Shown here: piece by piece, positions 2,621-33,984 of the stretch
How positions within the stretch are numbered: the stretch's first letter is position 1
How the letters are laid out: each line of letters begins with the position of its first letter
Source: a virus
Taxonomy: Duplodnaviria; Heunggongvirae; Uroviricota; Caudoviricetes
Length of the DNA stretch: 35,411 nt
Reading direction: 5' to 3' (one strand)
Virus record (IMG/VR): IMGVR_UViG_2654587746_000006
Span: 1 to 35,411 of that record
Made by a program: the position numbers and the translations under genes
The notes under the pieces: generated by a model
Seen by the model: the letters and a program-made list of their open reading frames with translations, nothing else
The model's database searches: none
What the model was told of the DNA's origin: nothing

Positions 2621-2732
2621 AACTGAAGTTGCCCTGAAAATGAAATTTTTTTGCACAACCGCAGAACTTTTCCGCAGGGCATCAGTCTTAATTAGTGCCA
2701 CTGCTTTTCTTTGATGTCCCCATTTTGTGGAG

Positions 2733-2776
2733 CCCATCAACCCCGCCATTTCGGTTCAAGGTTGATGGGTTTTTTG
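2733..2776 (+). terminator. Rho-independent terminator downstream of ybjL
   Basis: Perfect 10-bp stem cccatcaacc / ggttgatggg around a 17-nt loop, followed by tttttt. Confidence 0.5.
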
Positions 2777-2855
2777 TTGCCTGAAATTTATGCCTTTTAA
2801 AATCATGATGTTAGAAGCACTGTTTTTTAATGATGGCGACAAATTGGCGGCAGCG

Positions 2856-10325: not shown

Positions 10326-11459
10326 ATGAATCTACCATTTTCATTTATTTTAGCATTTTTCTGTATAATTGGTGCATTAGTCGCCTTCGGCTTACCGATA
10401 TTTAAATTTTTAGATGATGACATTCAGCAAAATCGTGCTAACGGTCTTGATGGAATGCGTTTTTATCTTGCATCATTCGTAATACTTCATCATATGGATT
10501 GCTCCTATTCATATTTTACAACCGGGGAATGGACCCCAATATCCCAGTGGCTTTTAACTATGGGAAAATATGGTGTAGCATTATTCTTCATGACAACAGC
10601 CTACTTATTTTGGGGGAAAATCAGGAACAAGAAAAATATTGATTGGGTAACCCTATATCAAAAAAGATTCCTTAGAATTGTCCCATTAGCTTTCTTTTGT
10701 TCATTCATGGGTATTTCTATACTTTTCATTTTCACGGAAAAAACCACATTAACTTTAACCACTATATCCAATATACTGTCCTGGTTTGATGGTAGCTTGT
10801 GGGATAATAAACCACCAGTAACGACTTTTCAGACTCCATTCATTGTGTTAGCCGGAGTTACGTGGACATTGAAATGGGAGTGGATGTTTTACTTTTCTCT
10901 TCCATTGCTATTTATTCTCAATAAAAAACCAATGGAACTGACTATTATTCTTTTTGCATTTTCGTTTTATTTATTGCCGTCCTTTACGAATACTGCATAT
11001 CTTTGGTCATATTTTTTTGCGGGGATGCTCTGCAGGGAGTTGAAAGAAAGAATTATCCTGTCCAAGACTAATGCAAATTATATTTTGATAGCTGCCATAC
11101 TGCTAACCTTTCTGTCAGCCCCTACATTATATAGCCCACCGGAGACTGCTTTCCTTGCTATTATTTTCTTTTGCATCATATCTGGAGCCGAACTCTTTGG
11201 CGCACTAACAACCAAAGCAGCCAAAAGATTAGGCGCGATTAGCTACAGTTTGTATCTCACACAGGGATTAGTACTTTTCCCAGTCTATAACTATCTGAAA
11301 TCCGCAAAAATGATGACTACTGGCCCCTTATTACTTTCGATACTTGTTATGACCTTCTTTGGCATTTGCCTGTTATCTACTTTCACTTATCATTTTATAG
11401 AATTACCGTTCATCAAAAAAATAAATAATAAATCATCAGACGGATTGCATAAAATTTAA
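10326..11459 (+). CDS. Acyltransferase family 3 integral membrane protein (O-antigen/LPS O-acetyltransferase-like); prophage cargo
   Basis: 377-aa polytopic membrane ORF with N-terminal signature NGLDGMRFYLASFVILHH (LDGxR...H of acyltransferase_3); visibly AT-rich; opposite strand to flanking tail genes. Confidence 0.85.
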   Translation: MNLPFSFILAFFCIIGALVAFGLPIFKFLDDDIQQNRANGLDGMRFYLASFVILHHMDCSYSYFTTGEWTPISQWLLTMGKYGVALFFMTTAYLFWGKIRNKKNIDWVTLYQKRFLRIVPLAFFCSFMGISILFIFTEKTTLTLTTISNILSWFDGSLWDNKPPVTTFQTPFIVLAGVTWTLKWEWMFYFSLPLLFILNKKPMELTIILFAFSFYLLPSFTNTAYLWSYFFAGMLCRELKERIILSKTNANYILIAAILLTFLSAPTLYSPPETAFLAIIFFCIISGAELFGALTTKAAKRLGAISYSLYLTQGLVLFPVYNYLKSAKMMTTGPLLLSILVMTFFGICLLSTFTYHFIELPFIKKINNKSSDGLHKI

Positions 11460-22309: not shown

Positions 22310-24076
22310 ATGAACACCACACTGACACCCGCAGATCTCGATCCCCGTCGGCAGGCCATGCTGCTGTACTTTCAGGGATACCGCGTAGCCCGCATTGCTG
22401 AAATGCTGGGCGAGAAAGTTGCAACCGTTCACAGCTGGAAAAAACGCGACAAGTGGGGTGACTATGGGCCGCTGGATCAGATGCAGCTCACCACCGCCGC
22501 ACGCTACTGCCAGCTCATCATGAAGGAGCACAAAGAAGGGAAAGATTTCAAAGAGATTGACCTGCTGGCGCGCCAGTCTGAGCGCCACGCGCGGATCGGC
22601 AAATTTAACAATGGCGGCAACGAAGCCGACTTAAACCCTAACGTCGCCAACCGCAACAAAGGCCCGCGCCGTCAGCCGGAAAAAAATGTCTTCACCGATG
22701 AACAGATTGAGAAGCTGGAAGAAATCTTCCATTCCTCCATGTTCAACTACCAGCGCCACTGGTGGGAAGCCGGAAAAACCAACCGCATCCGCAACCTGCT
22801 GAAGTCACGCCAGATCGGCGCGACCTTTTACTTTGCCCGTGAAGCCCTGATTGACGCCCTGCTTACCGGGCGTAACCAGATTTTCCTTTCCGCCAGTAAG
22901 GCACAGGCCCACGTCTTTAAGCAGTACATCATCGACTTCGCCAAAGAAGTGGAGGTGGAGCTGAAAGGCGATCCGATGGTGCTTCCTAACGGGGCCACGC
23001 TTTACTTCCTCGGCACCAATGCCCGCACGGCCCAGAGTTATCACGGCAACCTGTATCTGGATGAATATTTCTGGATACCGAAATTTCAGGAGCTACGCAA
23101 AGTGGCTTCCGGTATGGCTATTCACAAGAAATGGCGGCAGACCTATTTTTCCACACCATCTAGTCTGACCCACAGTGCTTATCCGTTCTGGTCCGGTGCG
23201 CTGTTCAACCGTGGGCGCAACAAAGCTGACAAGGTGGACATCGACCTGTCCCACAGCAATCTGGCCCCCGGCCTGCTGTGCGCAGACGGGCAATACCGCC
23301 AGATAGTCACCGTGGAAGATGCGGTGCGCGGCGGCTGTAACCTGTTCGACCTCGACCAGTTGCGCATGGAGTACAGCCCGGACGAATACCAGAACCTGCT
23401 GATGTGTGAGTTCGTAGACGATCTCGCGTCCGTGTTCCCGCTCAGCGAGCTGCAGGCGTGCATGGTGGACAGCTGGGAAGTCTGGACCGACTTTCATGCA
23501 CTGGCCCTGCGCCCGTTTGGCTGGCGCGAGGTGTGGATCGGTTATGACCCGGCAAAAGGTACGCAGAACGGCGACAGTGCCGGATGCGTGGTGGTGGCAC
23601 CGCCAGCCGTGCCGGGCGGCAAGTTCCGCATTCTTGAGCGTCACCAGTGGCGCGGGATGGACTTTCGCGCCCAAGCTGACGCCATCAAAAAACTGACCGA
23701 ACAGTACAACGTGACCTATATCGGCATCGACTCAACCGGCGTTGGTCACGGGGTTTATGAGAACGTGAAAGCGTTCTTTCCTGCCGTCCGGGAGTTTGTC
23801 TACAATCCCAATGTTAAAAACGCCCTGGTACTCAAGGCCTACGACATTATCAGCCACCGCCGTCTGGAGTTTGACGCCGGGCACACCGACATTGCGCAGT
23901 CATTCATGGCAATCCGTCGCGCCACCACCGCCAGCGGCAACCGCCCGACCTATGAAGCCAGCCGCAGCGAAGAAGCCAGCCACGCCGATCTGGCCTGGGC
24001 AACGATGCACGCACTGTTTAACGAACCGCTGCAGGGCGAATCCGCCAATACCAGCAATATTGTGGAGATTTTTTGA
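22310..24076 (+). CDS. Terminase large (ATPase) subunit, P2 gpP-like
   Basis: 588-aa ORF divergent from capsid operon and followed by overlapping portal gene. Confidence 0.9.
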   Translation: MNTTLTPADLDPRRQAMLLYFQGYRVARIAEMLGEKVATVHSWKKRDKWGDYGPLDQMQLTTAARYCQLIMKEHKEGKDFKEIDLLARQSERHARIGKFNNGGNEADLNPNVANRNKGPRRQPEKNVFTDEQIEKLEEIFHSSMFNYQRHWWEAGKTNRIRNLLKSRQIGATFYFAREALIDALLTGRNQIFLSASKAQAHVFKQYIIDFAKEVEVELKGDPMVLPNGATLYFLGTNARTAQSYHGNLYLDEYFWIPKFQELRKVASGMAIHKKWRQTYFSTPSSLTHSAYPFWSGALFNRGRNKADKVDIDLSHSNLAPGLLCADGQYRQIVTVEDAVRGGCNLFDLDQLRMEYSPDEYQNLLMCEFVDDLASVFPLSELQACMVDSWEVWTDFHALALRPFGWREVWIGYDPAKGTQNGDSAGCVVVAPPAVPGGKFRILERHQWRGMDFRAQADAIKKLTEQYNVTYIGIDSTGVGHGVYENVKAFFPAVREFVYNPNVKNALVLKAYDIISHRRLEFDAGHTDIAQSFMAIRRATTASGNRPTYEASRSEEASHADLAWATMHALFNEPLQGESANTSNIVEIF

Positions 24077-25107
24077 TGGGAAAGAGTAAGAAAAACCGCG
24101 CTGCGGCGACGAATCAGCTCAAGCATAAAAGCCAGACTTCAGCCGAAGCATTCAGCTTTGGCGATCCCGTTCCTGTTCTGGACCGCCGTGAACTGCTGGA
24201 CTATGTGGAATGCGTACAGATGGACCGCTGGTATGAGCCGCCCGTCAGCTTTGACGGACTGGCACGAACCTTCCGCGCTGCCGTGCATCACAGCTCACCG
24301 ATTGCAGTAAAATGCAACATTCTGACCAGTACCTACATCCCTCACCCGCTGCTCAGCCAGCAGGCTTTTTCACGTTTTGTGCAGGACTATCTGGTATTTG
24401 GTAACGCCTACCTGGAGAAACGCACGAACCGCTTCGGTGAAGTTATCGCCCTTGAGCCTGCTCTGGCAAAATACACCCGACGCGGGTTAGACCTGGATAC
24501 CTACTGGTTTGTGCAATACGGTATGACAACCCAGCCGTATCAGTTCACGAAAGGCAGCATTTTTCATCTGATGGAACCGGACATTAACCAGGAGATCTAC
24601 GGCCTACCCGGCTATCTTTCTGCCATTCCGTCCGCCCTGCTCAATGAGTCCGCCACGCTGTTCCGCCGCAAGTATTACATTAACGGTAGTCATGCAGGCT
24701 TCATCATGTACATGACCGATGCTGCGCAGAACCAGGAGGACGTGAACAACCTCCGCAATGCAATGAAAAGTGCCAAAGGTCCGGGTAACTTCCGCAACCT
24801 GTTTATGTACTCGCCTAACGGCAAAAAGGACGGCCTTCAGATCATCCCTTTGTCAGAAGTTGCGGCGAAGGATGAGTTTCTAAATATCAAGAACGTGAGC
24901 CGGGATGACATGATGGCAGCACATCGCGTTCCGCCACAGATGATGGGGATAATGCCAAATAATGTCGGGGGATTTGGGGATGTGGAAAAGGCTAGTAAAG
25001 TATTCGTAAGAAACGAATTGATATCAATGCAAAAACGGATCAAGGAGATTAATGTCTGGTTAGGTACAGATATTATCGCATTTACAGAATATAACTTAGA
25101 TATGTAA
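24073..25107 (+). CDS. Portal protein, P2 gpQ-like
   Basis: 344-aa ORF overlapping terminase stop (ATGA); last ~50 codons look AT-rich by eye. Confidence 0.9.
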   Translation: MMGKSKKNRAAATNQLKHKSQTSAEAFSFGDPVPVLDRRELLDYVECVQMDRWYEPPVSFDGLARTFRAAVHHSSPIAVKCNILTSTYIPHPLLSQQAFSRFVQDYLVFGNAYLEKRTNRFGEVIALEPALAKYTRRGLDLDTYWFVQYGMTTQPYQFTKGSIFHLMEPDINQEIYGLPGYLSAIPSALLNESATLFRRKYYINGSHAGFIMYMTDAAQNQEDVNNLRNAMKSAKGPGNFRNLFMYSPNGKKDGLQIIPLSEVAAKDEFLNIKNVSRDDMMAAHRVPPQMMGIMPNNVGGFGDVEKASKVFVRNELISMQKRIKEINVWLGTDIIAFTEYNLDM

Positions 25108-25123
25108 TCGTCCCACAATACAA

Positions 25124-25145
25124 GGCAAAGAGCATACTCTTTGCC
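25124..25145. terminator. Bidirectional hairpin terminator between convergent portal and RT genes
   Basis: Perfect 9-bp stem ggcaaagag / ctctttgcc with 4-nt loop, between portal stop (25107) and RT stop (25157). Confidence 0.6.
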
Positions 25146-25156
25146 TGTGATTACAG

Positions 25157-26914
25157 TTATACTTTGCACCTCTTTGAATAATCTGCAATAATTTCCTCAA
25201 TACCATCAAAAATAACTTTAAACTTTTCAAAACTAATTGTTTTACAATTTGCCTTTATAACCTTTGTTGAAAACACATGCTTACCATATTCTGTTTTTGT
25301 ATCCGTATCATTAGATTTATTAAATGTCTTTCCATCAAGCACCGTTGATAGTACCGTGCTATCAAATAAATCCTCCATACAAGACTCTTTCCCTCCAGGA
25401 AGCAATGGTGTTAATAACAAATAGAGATTGTCAAATATGTGGGTATACCTTGCCTTACGAATAGTATCAACATCATTTGGACAATTTTTTACTTTATCCT
25501 TTAAGTGATTTAATAAATCTTTAGGGCCTGAGTCATTATCAAGAAGCATAATAACAGGGTGCTTTGGTTTAAATTTCTCGAACCTCTTTTTTTGTTCTTG
25601 GTATCTTAATATAAATCTTTTGAAGTCTGTAGCACCGCCAGAAATGTCAAGAAAATAGCTTGTTTTTTCAGTTGCTTTAAAAAAATTAACACGATACTCA
25701 TTTTTAGAGCTATCATCAGAAGAATTAAACAATAAAGGATATGAATTCGCCAATGACTTCAAAGCACACTTTAAATATACACGGTCTGTTTTACCCTCAG
25801 TGAGTATTGTTGGCATTTCCATTCCATGAAAATTTTTATAGTATAGAAAATAACTGTAGGCTTTTTCTCTCGAATTCAATTTTGCAGTGTAGTTTAATCC
25901 ATGATTTACACTTTGGTACTTTTCCAACTGTCTTGCGTTCTTTAGTTTTAAATTATTATATTTATCTATTGAGTCAATAAATCCAAAACGGCCTTCTAAT
26001 TTAGCACATGTACCTTTTTCAATCTTTCCTGATTCAGTAACAATAACAAAAGAACCATCTTTATAAAGAGAATGAGCCATGGCACGCGTTACTTTTGCAT
26101 ATTCTTTGCCAACATTCACTTTTTTATTAACAGTCAACCCAGTAACATCTTGTCGTGATGTTTTATAACAAACCCTTGTCTTTTTATCATTTATTTTAAA
26201 GCCAGCCTTTATAATCTCTTTAATTAAAGTTGGACTTAGGGTTACAGACTCTCCGCCAACATCAGCAATCTCTTTTGGAAATGTTTTTTTATTAGTTGAA
26301 AATGTAAGATCATCAGCATACCGTGAATAATTGCATCCGTATTTCTTTGCTAACTTTGATAATCTTATATCAAGAATTCCACTGATTAAGTTACTTATAA
26401 TTGGAGAGCATGGGCTTCCTTGAGGAAGTCCATTCTGAAAACATGCAATTTGTGCGATCGTTGTAGCAACAGTATTATTTAATCTAAAATCTCTGTTTGA
26501 TAAGAAAAAACCTCTAACACGTCCAAAATTAAAACTATCAAAATAATCCTCAAGGTCTATATTTAGTAGTAGCGTTTTACCTCTATGCCGTTCAGCATTC
26601 GTAATAATTGACTTTTCTTTTTCAAACCCATGAGATAAAACTGGATTAATATTATATTTTTTATAAATTTCCGCACGACATAAATATAAAACATCAGCTA
26701 ATCTACGTTGAATATCTTTGAGCTTAGTGGTAGGTGCTGATATGACTCTCGGCGCTCCGTTTTTTTTAGGGATAGTAAATTGTGTATACTGCGTTTCAGC
26801 TTTTAAACGATAAATAACATCCGTAAGAAAAGCAGTTTTAAGATTCAAGATACTAGCCAAATCTTGCCTGTTAGCAGCGTTTTGTAAACGTTCTAAAATT
26901 GATAGGGGTGCCAT
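25157..26914 (-). CDS. ret: Retron-type reverse transcriptase with C-terminal TOPRIM-like domain
   Basis: 585 aa; RT motifs NAERH (NAxxH), LLNIDLEDYFDS, QGSPCSP, YADD, VTG; C-terminal ~220 aa with TOPRIM-like Glu (ILTEGKTD) and DxD (LLDNDSG); AT-rich; preceded by msr/msd-like region. Confidence 0.9.
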   Translation of the reverse strand: MAPLSILERLQNAANRQDLASILNLKTAFLTDVIYRLKAETQYTQFTIPKKNGAPRVISAPTTKLKDIQRRLADVLYLCRAEIYKKYNINPVLSHGFEKEKSIITNAERHRGKTLLLNIDLEDYFDSFNFGRVRGFFLSNRDFRLNNTVATTIAQIACFQNGLPQGSPCSPIISNLISGILDIRLSKLAKKYGCNYSRYADDLTFSTNKKTFPKEIADVGGESVTLSPTLIKEIIKAGFKINDKKTRVCYKTSRQDVTGLTVNKKVNVGKEYAKVTRAMAHSLYKDGSFVIVTESGKIEKGTCAKLEGRFGFIDSIDKYNNLKLKNARQLEKYQSVNHGLNYTAKLNSREKAYSYFLYYKNFHGMEMPTILTEGKTDRVYLKCALKSLANSYPLLFNSSDDSSKNEYRVNFFKATEKTSYFLDISGGATDFKRFILRYQEQKKRFEKFKPKHPVIMLLDNDSGPKDLLNHLKDKVKNCPNDVDTIRKARYTHIFDNLYLLLTPLLPGGKESCMEDLFDSTVLSTVLDGKTFNKSNDTDTKTEYGKHVFSTKVIKANCKTISFEKFKVIFDGIEEIIADYSKRCKV

Positions 26915-26949
26915 ATCTAAAAATCAACCTTGATTATCAGTTAGGGTAG

Positions 26950-26962
26950 GCACATGTAGGCA
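26950..26962. repeat. Retron inverted repeat a2 (gcacatgtaggca on + strand)
   Basis: Perfect reverse complement of 27068-27080. Confidence 0.7.
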
Positions 26963-27067
26963 CTCTTACGCAAAGCATAGGACAGCCCAAGAATGGCTAC
27001 AAGGATGTCAGAAGGCGAATCCATCTAACATTTAGATCACTGATTGCGATACCACAACCAACAAATC

Positions 27068-27080
27068 TGCCTACATGTGC
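27068..27080. repeat. Retron inverted repeat a1 (tgcctacatgtgc on + strand)
   Basis: Perfect reverse complement of 26950-26962. Confidence 0.7.
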
Positions 27081-27159
27081 ATGCTTAAGCTACCATGATC
27101 ATTTAAGAATGTGAAGAACCGTTAACAGTTTTGAAAGAGCCAGATCATAGCATTGCGCG

Positions 27160-27190
27160 CGCTCGTATCCCCGCCACGCCTGCCCGCTTT
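27160..27190 (-). other. Candidate cos (cohesive-end) site of the P2/186-like phage
   Basis: Minus strand reads GGCGTGGCGGGGA..., resembling my recollection of P2/186 cohesive ends (GGCGAGGCGGGGAAAGCAC type); oriented toward the portal gene. Confidence 0.45.
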
Positions 27191-27225
27191 ATGTAGTGGT
27201 TTTCATGCACCTGCATGATCTACAC

Positions 27226-27250
27226 AAAAGCCCGCCAGTTCTGGCAGGCC
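27226..27250 (-). terminator. Candidate terminator of the SOS-controlled operon
   Basis: Imperfect GC-rich hairpin gcccgccag..ctggcaggc followed on the minus strand by tttt. Confidence 0.4.
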
Positions 27251-27383
27251 TTAGCAAAAACGATCCTCAAACGATCATGCGATCTCATGCGGCATAGACA
27301 TGCACCACAGAGCTAACGCCTCGCACAGCTCGTTGTTCAACCTTGCTGACGCCAGAAGCAAGTTCAGACGCCAGCAACGTTTC

Positions 27384-27617
27384 TTAATGCAGCCAGCTGT
27401 CGTCTTCCCACACCTTCTGCATAATTTTCATCACTTGCTTCCTTTCTTCGTCCAGTTGCAGTCCGGTCAGTTCCACACCGTTAGAGCTACCTTTGCGGAT
27501 ACGAATTACCGTTTTGGGATACAGGGGGCGCAGATTACGGTAAAGCTCGGATTCAAGGGCGTCTAGGGTAGACTGGCTAATCTTCTGCTCTTTATCGATC
27601 ATTATTTCAATGCGCAT
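27384..27617 (-). CDS. dinI: DinI-like protein (DNA-damage-inducible protein I family)
   Basis: ~78 aa from Met MRIEIMIDKEQ... with GAGGTG RBS; resembles E. coli DinI (MRIEV... WE..D.W); ORF track extends 24 codons upstream. Confidence 0.8.
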   Translation of the reverse strand: MRIEIMIDKEQKISQSTLDALESELYRNLRPLYPKTVIRIRKGSSNGVELTGLQLDEERKQVMKIMQKVWEDDSWLH

Positions 27618-27627
27618 AAAAGTCACC

Positions 27628-27816
27628 TCAACTGATGACATCCATTGAGCGGTTGTATTCGTGGGTTCTGATTTTTGCCATGAGTTCATCTGTTAGTTCA
27701 GAAACCCACTGTAAAGCCAGCCCCTTCTCTTCATCACTACACTCACTAGCCGCTACAAGCTTAAGAAAAAAATCAATGCGCTGGAGCTTCAAAGACTCCA
27801 AAAAATAGTCCTGCAT
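27628..27816 (-). CDS. Small hypothetical protein, first gene of LexA-box operon (possible Tum-like antirepressor module)
   Basis: 62 aa from Met MQDYFLESLK... with AGGAGG RBS 4 nt upstream; directly downstream of SOS box; overlaps dinI-like start by ~11 nt. Confidence 0.5.
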   Translation of the reverse strand: MQDYFLESLKLQRIDFFLKLVAASECSDEEKGLALQWVSELTDELMAKIRTHEYNRSMDVIS

Positions 27817-27857
27817 CTTTCCTCCTATGACACCACAAGAAATACTGTATACATAAC

Positions 27858-27877
27858 CACTGTTTATAATTACAGTA
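27858..27877 (-). promoter_or_regulatory. LexA (SOS) box overlapping a sigma70-like promoter
   Basis: CTGT-ttataatt-ACAG (27860-27875) fits CTGT-N8-ACAG; minus strand shows TTTACA - 17 nt - TACTGT -35/-10 candidates overlapping the box. Confidence 0.6.
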
Positions 27878-27969
27878 TATAATAATCTTACTGATGTAAA
27901 ACGTTTTTTTACGTTCATCAGCCTGATATGCCTGGTATTATTAAGAGCACGGATTGTTAACCCGCGTGA

Positions 27970-30384
27970 TTAATACAGGTTCCGCCACTTATCATCTTCC
28001 TGCAAACGCTGGTTCCGATAGAAGATACGCAGGCCTGCTCCTGACGGAATACTGCCACCGCGAAGGAGCAAATCGACCTCTTTCTCGCTGCCATCAAATC
28101 CTCTGGACTTCAGTTCATAGACGAGTTGCTGACGCTGATACTCTGTAATTCGCTGTTTGTAGTCTTTACGCCGTTTCGGTTTAACCAGGCGTAATCTTGC
28201 TGCCAGTTCCCGGCGCTCTTTTTTGCTCATACTGTGCAGGTAATCGTGCAACTCCTTGTCATCCATGCGGGTGATATCCGTTCTGGTATCCCCATCAGCT
28301 GATTTGTCTTTCCCTTGTTGGTTCAAATTTTCAGCAAGGGGACAGTTATTGCCACGAGTCCAAGGGGCGCAAGCGCCCTGGTCGGCTGCCGCCTCCTGAA
28401 CGTCAACGGCCTTACGAACCATTTTCCACTTCACTGCATGAGTGCAGATCTTGCCCTCTGCAATGGGTGACCAGATGCCATAAATACGAATACCGTGATC
28501 ACCATAGGCGGTCGGCTCTTCGTTGATTTCATAAGCGGTTCTGATCAAGTGATATTTGCGGGGAACCAACACGCCGCCCTGCTTCATAATGTAGGTGGCA
28601 AAACAGCCAGCATCAGCAGCAGCCAGAATGGCATCAAGACGCGGATCATCCAGTACCGGCGCACCTGCTTTTTTGTCACCCTGCTGCCTTGCCGCCTGAC
28701 CAGCCAGCAATCGCAGTTCACGGTAAGCCTGACGCCCCGGAATGCCAAAGAAGCGGAATTGCTGAACACGATGCAGAGACGCCCAGGCATTAACGTATTC
28801 AGCGTTATCACGCAGGGATTTACCCGTTTCCTTGCTGATCTCGCCAGCCAGACCACGCCCGTCAATGTTCTTACTGATGTATTTCGCGATGTAGCTTGTC
28901 GGCGTTCCTTTGCGCGGGTTAATCAGCTCAGACTTAAAGCGTGGCCCCGTGTTATTGCCCAGTTCCTCGCGGTCTTCACGGATGGCAAACTTACGCAGTA
29001 ATGCAGTGATGGCGCGGCGGTCTTTTTTACGTATGAAGCACATGAGATGCCAGTGCACAGTACCGTCATGATGCGGCTCAGCCACCCGCACGCCATACCA
29101 CCGCAATCCGGCTTTGTGCATCGCCTTACGAAATGCAGCAAACATGCCGACCAGATAATCACTGCTTTGTCTTACCGTCGCATTTGTCCAGGTCGGGTTT
29201 GGTCTGCCGTTATTGAGCGTGGAATGGAAACGTGACGGACAGGTGATGGTGTAGAAAACGGCGCAGTCACCGCGCATTTCCGCGATAAGCTCCAGACCTT
29301 TAACGCAGGCCATCATCTCATTGCGGCGATGTGCCGGGTTGCTGCTGCTGGCGTTTACCACATCTTCCATATCCAGCGTGTCTCCGTCTTCGTTCACCAG
29401 TTCATGAGAACGGAAAAACTCCAGCGACTTGCGGCGCTGCTCACGTTTATGCGTCACTGCTTCATAGCTGACATAGGGAGATGCTTTTTTGCTGACCAGA
29501 CAGACAGCACGCAACTGCTCTTCCCGCCATTCGCAACGCATCTTCCACAATTTTCGATACCACCAGTCGGCGCAAAGCATACGTGCCAGCGAACCCGGTA
29601 TGAGTTCATAGGGCACAGGTTTGCGGCGGTTTCTTTTCCGACGAAGTTTCTCAAACGCAGGCGGGATAACATCCAGACGCAGGGTTTCCGCAGCCACCTT
29701 TTCCCATGTCTTGCGGATTTCTTCTGGCTTAACGTCATCGGTGGCGTACAAATCACCACAAGCGGCCTCAAGACACATGCTCATATGCGCTGCTACCAGG
29801 GTGGACAGGCGTTTCACCTGATCCTGGCTCATTTCAGGCAGGATCAGCAGCCCCTCCAGCCCTTGATGGCTTGCCATAAAACGGAAAGAAACAGATAGCT
29901 GACTGTCACGTACACAATCCAGTCGCTCCAGACATGGCTTAATCGTCTCACGCAAATAGCGGGAATAAGCCTTTGGCCTGCCCAGGCTGCTGAAGTATTC
30001 GATACGTTGCATCAGCGGCTTGCTGATATGAGAAGGCTGGGCGCTGACATCTGCCAGAATGACCATGTCCGGGTTAAAACGCTGCTGCTCATGCGCCAGC
30101 TTTGCCCGGCTAATGAGCTTATCCTGCTCCATTTCGCGCTGGACAGGATCACGGGATTCATTAAAGAAATAACGCTCCCAGACCTGCTCACTCAGTGCCT
30201 CGCGGCGCAGTTGTTCCTGCTCGTTATCGGCAGCGTACAGAGTGATCAGGTTTGAAAGTGCAGACTCCGGCGCAACTTCCGCCGGATCCAGATAAGGGTT
30301 AATGGCCTTTTTCGGGCCGTTCCATGAAAATGCTGCGGCAGCCTCGTTAAAGCCGCTAGAGTTGCTCATATCGTCATGACTCAT
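27970..30384 (-). CDS. Replication initiation protein, P2 gpA-like rolling-circle nickase
   Basis: 804-aa ORF with HUH-type and tyrosine motifs (TVHWHLMCF; [10 protein letters not shown]); last gene of the early operon. Confidence 0.88.
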
Positions 30385-31238
30385 ACACGCACCTCGTACA
30401 CAGCAGAACTATCCACGCCACGCGAAGGATCAAATCCCATCCAGCAGCGCGACCCGGAAACAGCAATGATTTCTGTTGCAGATTTACTCTCGCCAGCTGA
30501 CACGCCGATGCTGCGTTTTGCCTTGATGTAGTGGTGAGTGAAATTGCGATACAGCGAACGGATCAGGGATGTGTCACTGTTAGAAACAATGACCGGATGA
30601 CCTTCTGATGATCGATATTCAAGAACGGATGCCAGGTGATACTGGTCATCTTCAGTGAAGCCGTCAGTGTGATAACCGGAAAACGTGCCGTCATACGGCG
30701 GATCGCAATACACCACATCCCCCGCCTTCAACATCGCCAGCGTTTCATCAAAGCTGGCGCAGATAAACGTTGCTCGCTGGGCCTTTTCTGCAAATGCGTG
30801 AATTTCTTTTTCAGGGAAATACGGATTTTTATAATTACCGTAGGGAATGTTGAAATGCCCGCTCTTGTTATAGCGACATAAACCACGGTAACCGTGACGA
30901 TTGAGATACAGGAAATATACCGCTTTCATGAAATCAGTAATTTCAGTTGAGTAATTAAACTCCTGCCTTATGTTGTAATAAGCTAGGTCACTGTTTGCTT
31001 CCTCAAACAAAGTTCTGGTCCGCGATATAAACGCCTCGCAATCAGCGGCAATCTTTTTATAGAGGTTGATTAAATCAGGATTAATATCCGCAACCAGATA
31101 GCTGGGGTAATCCGTCTCCATCATCACAGCACAGGAACCCGCGAAAGGTTCAACCAGTCGCGGGCCAGCAGGTAGGTATTTTTTCAGTTCGGACATAATT
31201 GCGGTTTTATTTCCCGCCCATTTCAGGATGGTGCTCAT
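30381..31238 (-). CDS. dam: DNA adenine methyltransferase (Dam-like, orphan)
   Basis: ~285 aa from Met [11 protein letters not shown]...; motif [11 protein letters not shown] and motif IV DPPY; stop overlaps A start; no adjacent restriction endonuclease gene. Confidence 0.88.
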
Positions 31239-31462
31239 ACAGCACCTCCGTTGTAATGTTTGCCTTTCAGCTCTGCGATTTCCTGACAGGTAATGCAAAG
31301 CTGCACTCCAGGAATGGCACGGCGGCGTGCTGGCGGAATTGGTGCTTCACATTCAATGCAAAGCACGCGAGACACGCCCGGTGTTTTGGCACGGGCAGCA
31401 CGGATATGGCGCTGGCGTTCTTCTTCAACGCGCTGCTGTACGAGATCCATTGCATCAGCCAT
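31235..31462 (-). CDS. DksA/TraR-family C4 zinc-finger protein
   Basis: 75 aa with CIECEAPIPPARRRAIPGVQLCITCQ; start overlaps upstream stop (TAATG). Confidence 0.8.
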   Translation of the reverse strand: MADAMDLVQQRVEEERQRHIRAARAKTPGVSRVLCIECEAPIPPARRRAIPGVQLCITCQEIAELKGKHYNGGAV

Positions 31463-33414: not shown

Positions 33415-33984
33415 ATGAATTTGGAGAAAGGCGGACGAGGCGCTATAGAGCGCATGGTAGAAGCTTATGGATTCAAGACTCGACAGGCGTTGTGCGATCA
33501 TTTAGGAATCTCTAAAAGTACACTCGCCACACGCTACATGCGTGACTCATTCCCAGCAGAATGGGTAATCCAGTGCGCCCTTGAAACAGGCACCTCGCTT
33601 AATTGGCTCACAACCGGGCATGGTTCAAAGCAAACTTCAGGTAATACAAATACTATGGAAGTTGCTAAATATGTATTATCTGATGGGGCCTTGTGTGAAG
33701 ACGGTTTTTATATTTTCGATAGAGAATTTCTACCGTCGGCATTCAAGAATCTTTTTGTAATCACAGATAATAATTCTGAATTTATTTGTGATAAGGAATT
33801 TGATGATATACGTGATGGTAAATGGGTAATAAGTATTGATGGCGAAATAACGATCCGTGACATTACTCGTTTACCCGGTGGAAGAATCTTCGTCGAGGGT
33901 GGAAACAGAGCCTTCGAATGCAAGATAGAAGACATTGAAATAATTGGTAAAATTATAAGTTTAACAGTCAAGTATGTTAAATAG
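33415..33984 (+). CDS. cI: Immunity repressor CI (186 type, no S24 peptidase domain)
   Basis: ~189 aa from ATG (MNLEKGGRGAIERMVEAYGF...ALETG..LNWLTTGHG); no Ser-Lys autoprotease motif seen; divergent from apl-like gene. Confidence 0.85.
   Translation: MNLEKGGRGAIERMVEAYGFKTRQALCDHLGISKSTLATRYMRDSFPAEWVIQCALETGTSLNWLTTGHGSKQTSGNTNTMEVAKYVLSDGALCEDGFYIFDREFLPSAFKNLFVITDNNSEFICDKEFDDIRDGKWVISIDGEITIRDITRLPGGRIFVEGGNRAFECKIEDIEIIGKIISLTVKYVK

What the first reader, a model, noticed from the sequence alone, without database searches (positions are those of the whole stretch)
25157..27085. Retron (msr/msd + RT-TOPRIM fusion) inserted between cos and the portal gene of a P2/186-like prophage
Seen in sequence: a 585-aa minus-strand ORF carries the retron RT hallmarks (NAERH, YADD, VTG) and is preceded by a ~131-nt non-coding region bounded by a perfect 13-bp inverted repeat. 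The gene is AT-rich relative to the flanking phage genes. It sits in the slot where P2 carries old/tin, a known variable anti-phage cargo position. Established knowledge (recollection, not a search): E. coli retrons Ec67 and Ec86 were reported to replace DNA between cos and the late terminator of 186-related prophages; Ec67 RT is ~586 aa, maps near 19 min (where grxA/ybjL lie) and has a Dam methylase nearby. This may therefore be the described Ec67 / Retron-Eco2 element or a close relative rather than a new system.
Basis: partly seen in the sequence, partly recalled or inferred. Interest (0 to 1): 0.85.

Follow-up and report, generated by a model that had tools for sequence, protein, structure and literature searches.

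The report
Ec67-family retron in 186-like prophage
This is an intact anti-phage retron of the already described Ec67 (Eco2) family, a reverse transcriptase fused to a nuclease plus its small RNA, sitting in the known cargo slot next to the packaging site of a 186-like E. coli prophage; it is a divergent relative of Ec67, not Ec67 itself, and is otherwise ordinary.

Summary
The 585-aa minus-strand ORF (25157-26914) has NAERH, YADD and VTG. A perfect 13-bp inverted repeat bounds a 131-nt non-coding stretch just upstream, and the cassette is 32-34% GC against about 54% in the flanks.

The protein passes NCBI's curated Ec67-family model (722.7 bits, cut-off 450) and PADLOC RT-Toprim_I-C. It is 57% identical to the solved Eco2/Ec67 structure, with the RT and TOPRIM catalytic residues conserved.

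The RNA aligns with the Ec67 msr-msd, and the branching G lies in the same CAGA context. Both helices covary across 29 type I-C loci.

The cassette starts a few bases past cos and ends at the portal gene of a 186-like prophage between rybB/ybjL and rcdA. Canonical Ec67 uses the same cos-side breakpoint in another E. coli genome.

It is a distinct allele predicted to make a different, roughly 66-nt msDNA. P2's old/tin lie on the other side of cos within the same hotspot.

The likely mechanism is inferred from Eco2: an msDNA-caged trimer is released by phage nucleases and then cleaves tRNA.

The exact protein is already catalogued (WP_023145585.1). Interest is low.

The parts
25157..26914 (-). 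RT-TOPRIM fusion gene (585 aa plus stop), retron Ec67 family, type I-C
   Evidence: ORF. NCBIfam NF038237 retron_Ec67_fus scores 722.7 bits against a cut-off of 450. PADLOC RT-Toprim_I-C scores 740.6 bits. PDB Eco2 chains 9lm3/9i2f match at E = 5e-217 over residues 4-579. The exact sequence equals WP_023145585.1, seen on 510 contigs.
26129..26773 (-). Reverse-transcriptase core (aa 48-262), with NAERH (aa 106-110), YADD (199-202) and VTG (257-259)
   Evidence: Pfam RVT_1 at 5e-27 over aa 48-262. Motif positions. F46, K66 and R70, which contact the RNA in Eco2 (PMC12405507), are invariant in the 3-allele alignment.
25160..25819 (-). C-terminal TOPRIM nuclease region (aa ~366-585); catalytic E373, D377 (motif IV, EGxxD) and D459, D461 (motif V, DxD)
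   Evidence: These residues map one-to-one onto Eco2 E374/D378/D460/D462, which are required for RNA cleavage (PMC12916289). The EGxxD and DxD signatures define type I-C1/I-C3 (PMC7736814).
26950..27080 (-). Retron non-coding RNA gene (a1-msr-msd-a2), 131 nt
   Evidence: It aligns with the Ec67 ncRNA read from E. coli E7-1N7 (L088) and with two other alleles. MFE is -54 kcal/mol, z = -6.2. Covariation was found in 29 loci.
27068..27080 (-). a1 arm of the inverted repeat (GCACATGTAGGCA)
   Evidence: All 11 counted pairs of the a1/a2 helix show compensatory changes across 29 loci.
26950..26962 (-). a2 arm of the inverted repeat (TGCCTACATGTGC)
27067..27067 (-). Predicted branching (priming) guanosine, in the context CAGA
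   Evidence: It is homologous to Eco2 rG15 by alignment. A-G-A is invariant in 29 type I-C loci. CAGA is the reported Ec67 context (PMC6868368). The 2'-5' branch itself has not been shown.
27039..27062 (-). msr stem-loop (GUUGGUUGUGGUAUCGCAAUCAGU)
   Evidence: It corresponds to the Eco2 RNA stem-loop rG20-rU42 (PMC12405507). Six of seven pairs show compensatory changes, and this helix was not used to select the loci.
26964..27029 (-). Predicted msd template (66 nt); predicted msDNA 5'-TCTTACGCAAAGCATAGGACAGCCCAAGAATGGCTACAAGGATGTCAGAAGGCGAATCCATCTAAC-3'
   Evidence: The ends are placed by homology with Eco2, where dT1 is templated just 5' of a2 and synthesis stops at rG52. This is inferred, not measured.
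27087..27115 (-). Candidate promoter of the ncRNA/RT transcript: TTCACA, 17 nt, (TGg)TAGCTT, ending 6 nt before a1
   Evidence: Read directly from the sequence. It is weak evidence: the consensus scan did not report it, because the -10 hexamer matches only 3 of 6.
25123..25146 (.). 10-bp hairpin between the convergent RT (stop codon 25157-25159) and portal (stop 25107) genes; a terminator candidate
27162..27180 (-). cos-like cohesive-end site (GGCGTGGCGGGGATACGAG); the cassette boundary follows at about 27155
   Evidence: Phage 186 cos occupies positions 1-19. 186 homology runs from R30560 to L26, equal to window 27245-27155, then is lost until inside the portal gene. Three retron alleles diverge immediately after ...ACGAGCGCGCGC.
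24073..25107 (+). Portal gene (P2 Q / 186 W homologue), the left flank of the cassette
   Evidence: Pfam Phage_portal. It is annotated as a portal protein in near-identical prophages.

Best explanation
This is an intact type I-C (most likely I-C1) retron of the Ec67/Retron-Eco2 family, carried as anti-phage cargo in the cos-proximal hotspot of a 186-like prophage.

Shown here: a single transcription unit on the minus strand holds a 131-nt ncRNA (a1-msr-msd-a2) followed by one gene for an RT fused to a TOPRIM nuclease. All catalytic residues are intact, and the RNA helices are evolutionarily constrained.

Inferred by homology to Eco2:
- The RT primes on the 2'-OH of the G at 27067.
- It copies the msd template into a roughly 66-nt msDNA that stays branched to the msr RNA.
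- RT-TOPRIM and msDNA assemble, probably as a 3:3 trimer, so that the msDNA cages the TOPRIM active sites.
- A phage DNA endonuclease (DenB or A1-type in T-even and T5-like phages) nicks and destroys the msDNA.
- The freed TOPRIM then cuts tRNA acceptor stems and other RNAs, which stops translation and blocks phage spread.

This would protect the lysogen, and with it the prophage.
For: Family membership rests on several independent scores.
- NCBIfam retron_Ec67_fus scores 722.7 bits against a cut-off of 450, covering model positions 1-572 of 572.
- PADLOC RT-Toprim_I-C scores 740.6 bits.
- Solved Eco2 structures match at E = 5e-217, with 57% identity over 577 columns.
- YADD and the TOPRIM residues E373/D377/D459/D461 are conserved, as are F46/K66/R70.

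The ncRNA is homologous to the Ec67 ncRNA. The a1+msr part is 43/51 identical, with the same CAGA branch context and the same GAGUGCC motif before a2.

Structural constraint was measured in 29 type I-C loci from many phyla. Of the cells, 97.1% are paired, against 72.4% in shuffles and 32-43% in slid controls. Seventeen of 18 pairs carry compensatory changes.

Geometry is also shared. In 31 of 45 distant RT-TOPRIM loci the longest upstream inverted repeat is a perfect repeat of 9-14 bp lying at the same position, about -190/-130 to -50/-3 from the RT start.

The element looks maintained. It is 99-99.9% conserved in 14 complete E. coli genomes, always between cos and portal.

The mechanism comes from Eco2 papers PMC12916289 and PMC12405507.
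Against: Nothing about this allele has been measured. There is no msDNA, no phage challenge, and no known trigger.

The only protein-protein contact of the Eco2 trimer (residues 325-347) is poorly conserved here, at 7 of 23 positions with a one-residue gap. The 3:3 assembly is therefore an extrapolation.

The central msd differs from Ec67 (45 identities in 72 aligned columns). The predicted msDNA has no significantly stable fold on its own (z = 0.17), although the same is true of Ec67 msDNA (z = 0.05).

No consensus promoter was detected upstream of a1. Rfam holds no model that recognises the RNA.

Support for the a1/a2 helix is partly circular, because loci were chosen for having such a repeat. 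Support for the msr helix is not.
Confidence: 0.88

Rival explanations
1. It is the originally described retron Ec67 (Retron-Eco2) itself, meaning the same element that Hsu et al. and Dodd & Egan described.
For: It has the same chromosomal neighbourhood (grxA-ybjM-ybjL-rybB on one side, rcdA on the other), a Dam methylase in the prophage, and the same cos-side breakpoint. The protein lengths are 585 and 586 aa.
Against: The protein is only 57% identical to the Eco2 PDB chain. The msd template matches in 45 of 72 aligned columns, and the predicted msDNA is 66 nt with a different sequence. A 99.8%-identical canonical Ec67 with the canonical ncRNA exists in E. coli E7-1N7 and is clearly a different allele.
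Confidence: 0.02
2. It is a decayed or silent remnant. The retron is carried passively by the prophage and no longer makes msDNA or defends.
For: No promoter passes the consensus scan. This allele is rare, present in 14 of 5426 complete E. coli genomes. There are no experimental data.
Against: The reading frame is full length and covers the whole family model. Every catalytic residue is intact. The inverted repeat is perfect and the ncRNA is identical in PS3Tanimalfeces2. The exact protein occurs on 510 contigs and its 90%-identity cluster includes Salmonella proteins, which argues for maintenance and spread.
Confidence: 0.07
3. The RT belongs to another class of bacterial retroelement or defence RT (group II intron maturase, DGR, or DRT/Abi). 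On this view the inverted repeat is only a terminator or regulatory palindrome.
For: Weak sub-threshold similarity to group II intron RT (56.2 bits) and Drt2 (40.7 bits). This is expected for any RT.
Against: Both scores are far below their curated cut-offs of 300 and 390, while the retron model is far above its own. No group II intron RNA was found in the window by Rfam. No template/variable repeat pair exists: the only direct repeat is 27 nt at 74% identity, inside the ORF. The retron-specific NAXXH and VTG motifs are present. The arms of the repeat are 105 nt apart and enclose conserved msr/msd motifs.
Confidence: 0.01
4. It is a functional retron, but the TOPRIM domain acts mainly as the RNase H-like enzyme that trims the msd RNA template during msDNA maturation, not as the defence effector.
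For: This was the historical speculation for Ec67, given the RNase-H-like fold (summarised in PMC12916289).
Against: For Eco2 the TOPRIM was shown not to take part in msDNA biogenesis and to be the RNA- and tRNA-cleaving effector (PMC12916289). The same catalytic residues are present here. This has not been tested for this allele.
Confidence: 0.02

Closest known systems
Retron-Eco2 (Ec67), type I-C1; structures 9I2F/9I2G/9S1F and 9LM3
   Same: It has the same single-gene architecture, with the ncRNA directly upstream of an RT-TOPRIM fusion of 585 versus 586 aa. It shares the RT motifs and TOPRIM catalytic residues, the msr design (CAGA branch G, AUUU linker, stem-loop, 9-nt linker) and the GAGUGCC motif before a2. 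It sits at the same cos-to-portal position with the same cos-side breakpoint in a 186-like prophage.
   Different: Protein identity is 57%. The trimer-contact loop is 7/23 identical with one deletion. The msr stem-loop is 24 nt rather than 23. The centre of the msd is unrelated, giving a predicted 66-nt msDNA of different sequence. The last ~30 codons of the adjoining portal gene also differ. Triggers and targets are untested.
Other Ec67-family alleles in E. coli: the GF4-3 allele (same prophage slot) and the ST131-type allele next to dhaR
   Same: All are annotated as retron Ec67 family. GF4-3 sits between cos and portal with the same breakpoint. The dhaR-island allele has an msr stem-loop identical to the window's.
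   Different: They are 55% and 54% identical to the window protein. The dhaR allele is not in a P2/186-like prophage and lies beside an 'ABC-three component system'. About 10% of complete E. coli genomes (547 of 5426) carry some allele, but only 14 carry this one.
Retron-Eco1 (Ec86), type II-A
   Same: The literature reports that it occupies the same cos-to-terminator site of 186-related prophages (PMC6868368). The RT is homologous (E = 6e-33).
   Different: It has a separate N-glycosidase effector and forms a filamentous complex, with no TOPRIM fusion (PMC12916289).
P2 old/tin and the P2-like cos-proximal defence hotspot (Rousset et al. 2022)
   Same: It is variable anti-phage cargo between gpA and gpQ next to cos, and retrons are listed among that cargo (PMC9122126).
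   Different: old and tin lie on the gpA side of cos (P2 30684-33380, cosR 33575-33593), whereas this retron lies on the portal side. In the window the gpA-side sub-slot is empty.
Retron types XI (RT-protease) and XII (RT-TIR)
   Same: The RT domains are closely related, with PADLOC scores of 325-341 bits over the RT part.
   Different: The fused effector domain is different. NCBIfam Retron_TIR scores 290 bits, below its cut-off of 600.

Membership tests
Retrons (general) | RT carrying the retron-type motifs NAXXH, YADD and VTG | tested here: met
   NAERH at aa 106, YADD at 199, VTG at 257. The motifs are named as conserved retron features in PMC12405507.
Retrons (general) | A non-coding RNA gene adjacent to the RT, closed by complementary a1/a2 arms | tested here: met
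   A 13-bp perfect repeat lies 36-166 nt upstream of the ATG; 0 of 1000 shuffles reach 13 bp. The helix covaries at 11 of 11 pairs, although the loci were pre-selected for having a repeat.
Retrons (general) | A conserved priming guanosine at the inner end of a1 | tested here: met
   The G at 27067 lies in CAGA, the Ec67 context. AGA is invariant in 29 loci. It aligns to Eco2 rG15.
Retrons (general) | Production of branched multicopy single-stranded DNA (msDNA) | not testable with these tools
   This needs nucleic-acid extraction from a lysogen or clone.
Retron type I-C / Ec67 family (RT-TOPRIM fusion) | The full-length protein passes the curated family model | tested here: met
   NF038237 scores 722.7 bits against a cut-off of 450, covering model positions 1-572 of 572. 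PADLOC RT-Toprim_I-C scores 740.6 bits.
Retron type I-C / Ec67 family (RT-TOPRIM fusion) | C-terminal TOPRIM with motif IV EGxxD and motif V DxD (I-C1/I-C3; I-C2 has DxE) | tested here: met
   TEGKTD at aa 372-377 and DND at 459-461. Definitions from PMC7736814.
Retron type I-C / Ec67 family (RT-TOPRIM fusion) | [quoted passage not shown] | tested here: met
   Only the RT-TOPRIM ORF lies between cos and the portal gene.
Retron type I-C / Ec67 family (RT-TOPRIM fusion) | The type I-C ncRNA design (branch AGA, msr stem-loop, GAGU before a2) | tested here: met
   The 29-locus alignment has invariant AGA and GAGT, and the msr stem covaries.
Retron type I-C / Ec67 family (RT-TOPRIM fusion) | Sub-type assignment (I-C1 versus I-C3) by RT phylogeny | not tested
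   No tree was built. I-C1 is assumed from the 57% identity to Eco2, the I-C1 prototype.
Retron type I-C / Ec67 family (RT-TOPRIM fusion) | msDNA-caged 3:3 complex; activation by phage nuclease (DenB/A1); tRNA/RNA cleavage; phage defence | not testable with these tools
   Known only for Eco2. The trimer loop is divergent here.
Retron-Eco2 (Ec67) sensu stricto | Near-identity of the RT-TOPRIM protein and of the 67-nt msd to the described element | tested here: not met
   57% protein identity. The msd matches in 45 of 72 aligned columns and is predicted to be 66 nt. Canonical Ec67 was found elsewhere (L088) at 99.8% identity.
Cargo of the P2/186 cos-proximal hotspot | Located between gpA and the portal gene, adjacent to cos, replacing the short cos-tW spacer of 186 | tested here: met
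   In 186, cos is at 1-19, tW at 164-187 and portal at 196-1218. The window keeps 186 homology through cos to 27155, then carries 2 kb of 33% GC DNA up to the portal gene.
Group II intron RT / DGR RT | Passes the group II maturase model with an intron RNA present, or has template/variable repeats | tested here: not met
   TIGR04416 scores 56.2 bits against a cut-off of 300. Rfam finds no intron RNA. No TR/VR-type repeat is present.

The most novel reading that the evidence does not exclude
The Ec67-family alleles that alternate at this one prophage slot (this one, GF4-3 and canonical Ec67, 55-70% identical to each other) may be functionally distinct, mutually orthogonal sensors. Their divergent msd centres and trimer-contact loops could give each allele a different set of phage nuclease triggers and prevent mixed assemblies. 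On this reading the slot would behave as a diversifying 'immune allele' locus, swapped as a cassette that even carries its own portal C-terminus.
Probability: 0.2. Interest if true: 0.4.

Novelty: already known. Interest (0 to 1): 0.15.

Why it matters
It matters little beyond correct annotation. The family, its prophage location, its structure, its trigger and its effector chemistry are all published, and the exact protein is already named in RefSeq.

The modest value is that this is a natural, divergent allele with nearly the same msr but a different msd and a different trimer loop. That makes it a convenient comparison partner for Eco2 in three kinds of study: what sets trigger specificity, whether RT and ncRNA cross-recognise between alleles, and msd engineering.

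It also illustrates cassette exchange at a fixed breakpoint next to cos.

Tried and rejected
- Rfam, at gathering thresholds over the whole window and at permissive thresholds on 26800-27400, found no retron RNA family. The only hits were RybB elsewhere and a chance snoRNA match at E = 9.2. Rfam therefore cannot confirm or deny the ncRNA.
- The consensus promoter scan found nothing upstream of a1. The promoter I list was read by eye and is weak.
- Folding the predicted msDNA as DNA gave no significant structure for this allele or for Ec67. I therefore could not test for a hairpin or a three-way junction.
- Full-text searches for the msr sequence and for WP_023145585 returned nothing. The supplement of Mestre et al. 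is not held. I therefore could not establish whether this allele has been listed or tested by name.
- The phage collection holds no record with this retron; only the cos-flanking ~150 bp match.
- Rejected readings: Ec67 itself, group II intron or DGR RT, and a pseudogene (see the rival explanations).
- No structure prediction was run, because a 57%-identical solved structure exists.
Full report
**Observation.** The minus-strand ORF 25157-26914 exists and encodes 585 aa. It carries NAERH (aa 106-110), YADD (199-202) and VTG (257-259).

Just upstream, a perfect 13-bp inverted repeat (27068-27080 and 26950-26962) encloses 105 nt, so the span is 131 nt. It ends 36 nt before the start codon. None of 1000 shuffles of the 360-nt upstream region reached 13 bp; the longest was 11. 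The 131-nt RNA folds at -54 kcal/mol, with z = -6.2.

The ORF is 32% GC, and the whole interval from the portal stop to cos is 33.5%. The terminase and portal genes are 54% and gpA is 53%.

**The protein.**
- Pfam sees only RVT_1, at aa 48-262.
- PADLOC's best models are the four RT-Toprim_I-C profiles, up to 740.6 bits over the full length.
- NCBI's curated model retron_Ec67_fus scores 722.7 bits against a cut-off of 450, covering model positions 1-572 of 572. Group II intron maturase (56 bits against 300), Drt2 (41 against 390) and RT-TIR (290 against 600) all fail their cut-offs.
- The best solved structures are Retron Ec67/Eco2 chains 9LM3 and 9I2F/9I2G/9S1F, at E = 5e-217 over residues 4-579. 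Identity is 57%.
- The Eco2 TOPRIM catalytic residues E374/D378/D460/D462 correspond to E373/D377/D459/D461 here. YADD, F46, K66 and R70 are also conserved.
- The TOPRIM motifs EGxxD and DxD fit subtype I-C1 or I-C3, not I-C2.

**The RNA.** Canonical Ec67 was located in E. coli E7-1N7 (L088). Its RT-TOPRIM is 99.8% identical to the PDB chain, and its upstream DNA carries the Ec67 msr-msd. The numbering of that RNA matches the published structure: rG15, AUUU 16-19, stem-loop 20-42, linker 43-51, rG52, a 67-nt msd ending in CTGCC.

The window RNA aligns to it end to end. The features, in order, are:
- a1;
- a G in the context CAGA (window 27067);
- AUUU;
- a 24-nt stem-loop (27062-27039);
- a 9-nt linker;
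- a 66-nt msd template (27029-26964);
- GAGUGCC running into a2.

The a1+msr part is 43/51 identical to Ec67. The msd matches in only 45 of 72 aligned columns, conserved at both ends and unrelated in the middle. The predicted product is therefore a roughly 66-nt msDNA of new sequence. This is inferred, not measured.

**Test in homologous loci.** A pattern scan of one genome per species returned 80 loci encoding RT-TOPRIM relatives from many phyla.

In 31 of the 45 full-length loci, the longest upstream inverted repeat is a perfect repeat of 9-14 bp at the same geometry as in the window, about -190/-130 to -50/-3 from the RT start. The arm sequences differ between loci.

An alignment of 29 such RNAs shows invariant AGA at the branch point and invariant GAGT before a2. 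RNAalifold recovers the a1/a2 helix and the msr stem-loop. On that structure:
- 97.1% of cells are paired, against 72.4% in shuffles and 32-43% when partners are slid;
- 17 of 18 pairs have double-sided changes;
- the covariation score is 0.82, against 0.31 in shuffles, with 0 of 500 shuffles as high.

One caveat applies. Loci were chosen for having a terminal repeat, so the a1/a2 result is partly circular. The msr stem (6 of 7 pairs compensatory) is an independent result.

**Context.** The window runs grxA-ybjM-ybjL-rybB, then a complete-looking P2/186-type prophage, ending in its integrase. The evidence is the RybB hit at 2700-2778 and the annotations of near-identical prophages.

Phage 186 has cos at 1-19, terminator tW at 164-187 and portal gene W at 196-1218. 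The window keeps 186 homology across cos (186 30560 through L26, equal to window 27245-27155). Homology is then lost until inside the portal gene. About 2 kb of AT-rich retron DNA thus stands where 186 has about 170 bp.

This matches the published statement that Ec86 and Ec67 replace the same ~180 bp between cos and the terminator of a packaging gene (PMC6868368, citing Dodd & Egan 1996).

Three different alleles (window, GF4-3 and canonical Ec67) diverge at exactly the same point after ...GGGGATACGAGCGCGCGC. A D12-class Dam methylase lies at 30381-31298.

P2's old and tin lie on the gpA side of cos. The retron is therefore in the same gpA-gpQ hotspot defined by Rousset et al. (PMC9122126), but on the opposite side of cos.

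**Distribution.** The exact protein is WP_023145585.1, named 'retron Ec67 family RNA-directed DNA polymerase/endonuclease'. It is seen on 510 contigs, and its 90%-identity cluster also includes proteins from Salmonella.

Fourteen of 5426 complete E. coli genomes carry this allele at 99% identity or more over the RT gene, always between cos and portal. In total 547 genomes (10%) carry some Ec67-family allele. Alleles are 49-70% identical to each other.

**Mechanism.** What is shown here is an intact transcription unit with a constrained RNA and an enzyme with two intact active sites. The steps below are inferred from Eco2 (PMC12916289, PMC12405507):
1. The RT primes on the 2'-OH of the branch G and copies the msd.
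2. Three RT-TOPRIM/msDNA units form a trimer in which the msDNA cages the TOPRIM.
3. The phage nuclease DenB (A1 is also implicated) cuts the msDNA.
4. The freed TOPRIM nicks tRNA acceptor stems and other RNAs, which shuts down translation.

The weak points for this allele are the divergent trimer-contact loop (7/23 identical), the different msd, and the lack of any experiment.

**Verdict.** The element is a member of a well-characterised family in a well-described location, and it is already catalogued. It is a distinct allele, not Ec67 itself. Interest is low.

Noticed in passing
window 24972-25107 (3' end of the portal gene): Prophages with different Ec67-family alleles are 85-100% identical through most of the portal gene. 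Identity then falls to 73-77%, 55% and about 35% over the last ~130 nt, and GC drops to 33-40%. Each retron allele thus seems to come with its own ~30 C-terminal portal codons, so the swapped cassette appears to reach into the portal gene rather than stopping at a terminator.
   Followed up: partly
window 27181-27383; L001 22506-25405; L003 22573-24228; L002 4560-4985: The gpA side of cos holds no cargo gene in the window. Prophages with the same retron allele carry SIR2 plus an ATP-binding protein, or a restriction endonuclease plus an ASCH protein, at that position. The GF4-3 prophage, with a different allele, carries a 141-aa hypothetical there. The two sub-slots flanking cos therefore assort independently.
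   Followed up: partly
window 10326-11459 (+): A 377-aa Acyl_transf_3 acyltransferase (Pfam 2.1e-26, no PADLOC hit) lies on the opposite strand between the tail-sheath and tail-fibre-assembly genes. From memory, this is the second variable cargo position of P2-like phages (Z/fun). It may be a surface-polysaccharide-modifying lysogenic-conversion gene.
   Followed up: partly
window 2700-2778 (+): The RybB sRNA gene (Rfam 105 bits) lies at the prophage/chromosome junction next to ybjL, so the phage probably integrates at or beside the 3' end of rybB. The other junction lies beyond the window, so the att core was not determined.
   Followed up: no
window 30381-31298 (-): A D12-class N6-adenine (Dam-like) orphan methyltransferase lies immediately upstream of the replication gene A. 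This matches the 'Dam methylase' historically reported with the Ec67 element.
   Followed up: partly
L087 3052-3311 and 3312-5069 (E. coli 4/0; widespread, including ST131 genomes): A third Ec67-family allele, 54% identical to the window protein, lies outside any P2-like prophage, between dhaR and an 'ABC-three component system'. Its msr stem-loop is identical to the window's although the proteins are only 54% identical.
   Followed up: partly
L013, L016, L018, L021, L027, L035, L036, L044, L045, L047, L056 (upstream of the RT): About a third of the distant RT-TOPRIM loci (Streptococcus, some Campylobacter, Acinetobacter and others) showed no perfect inverted repeat at the expected position. 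Their ncRNAs may have imperfect arms or a different layout.
   Followed up: no
window 27628-27918 (-) and 27384-27689 (-): A DinI-like protein (Pfam 1.3e-22), at the position of 186 tum, is preceded by an overlapping 96-aa ORF with no family hit. Relatives annotate a 62-aa hypothetical there.
   Followed up: no
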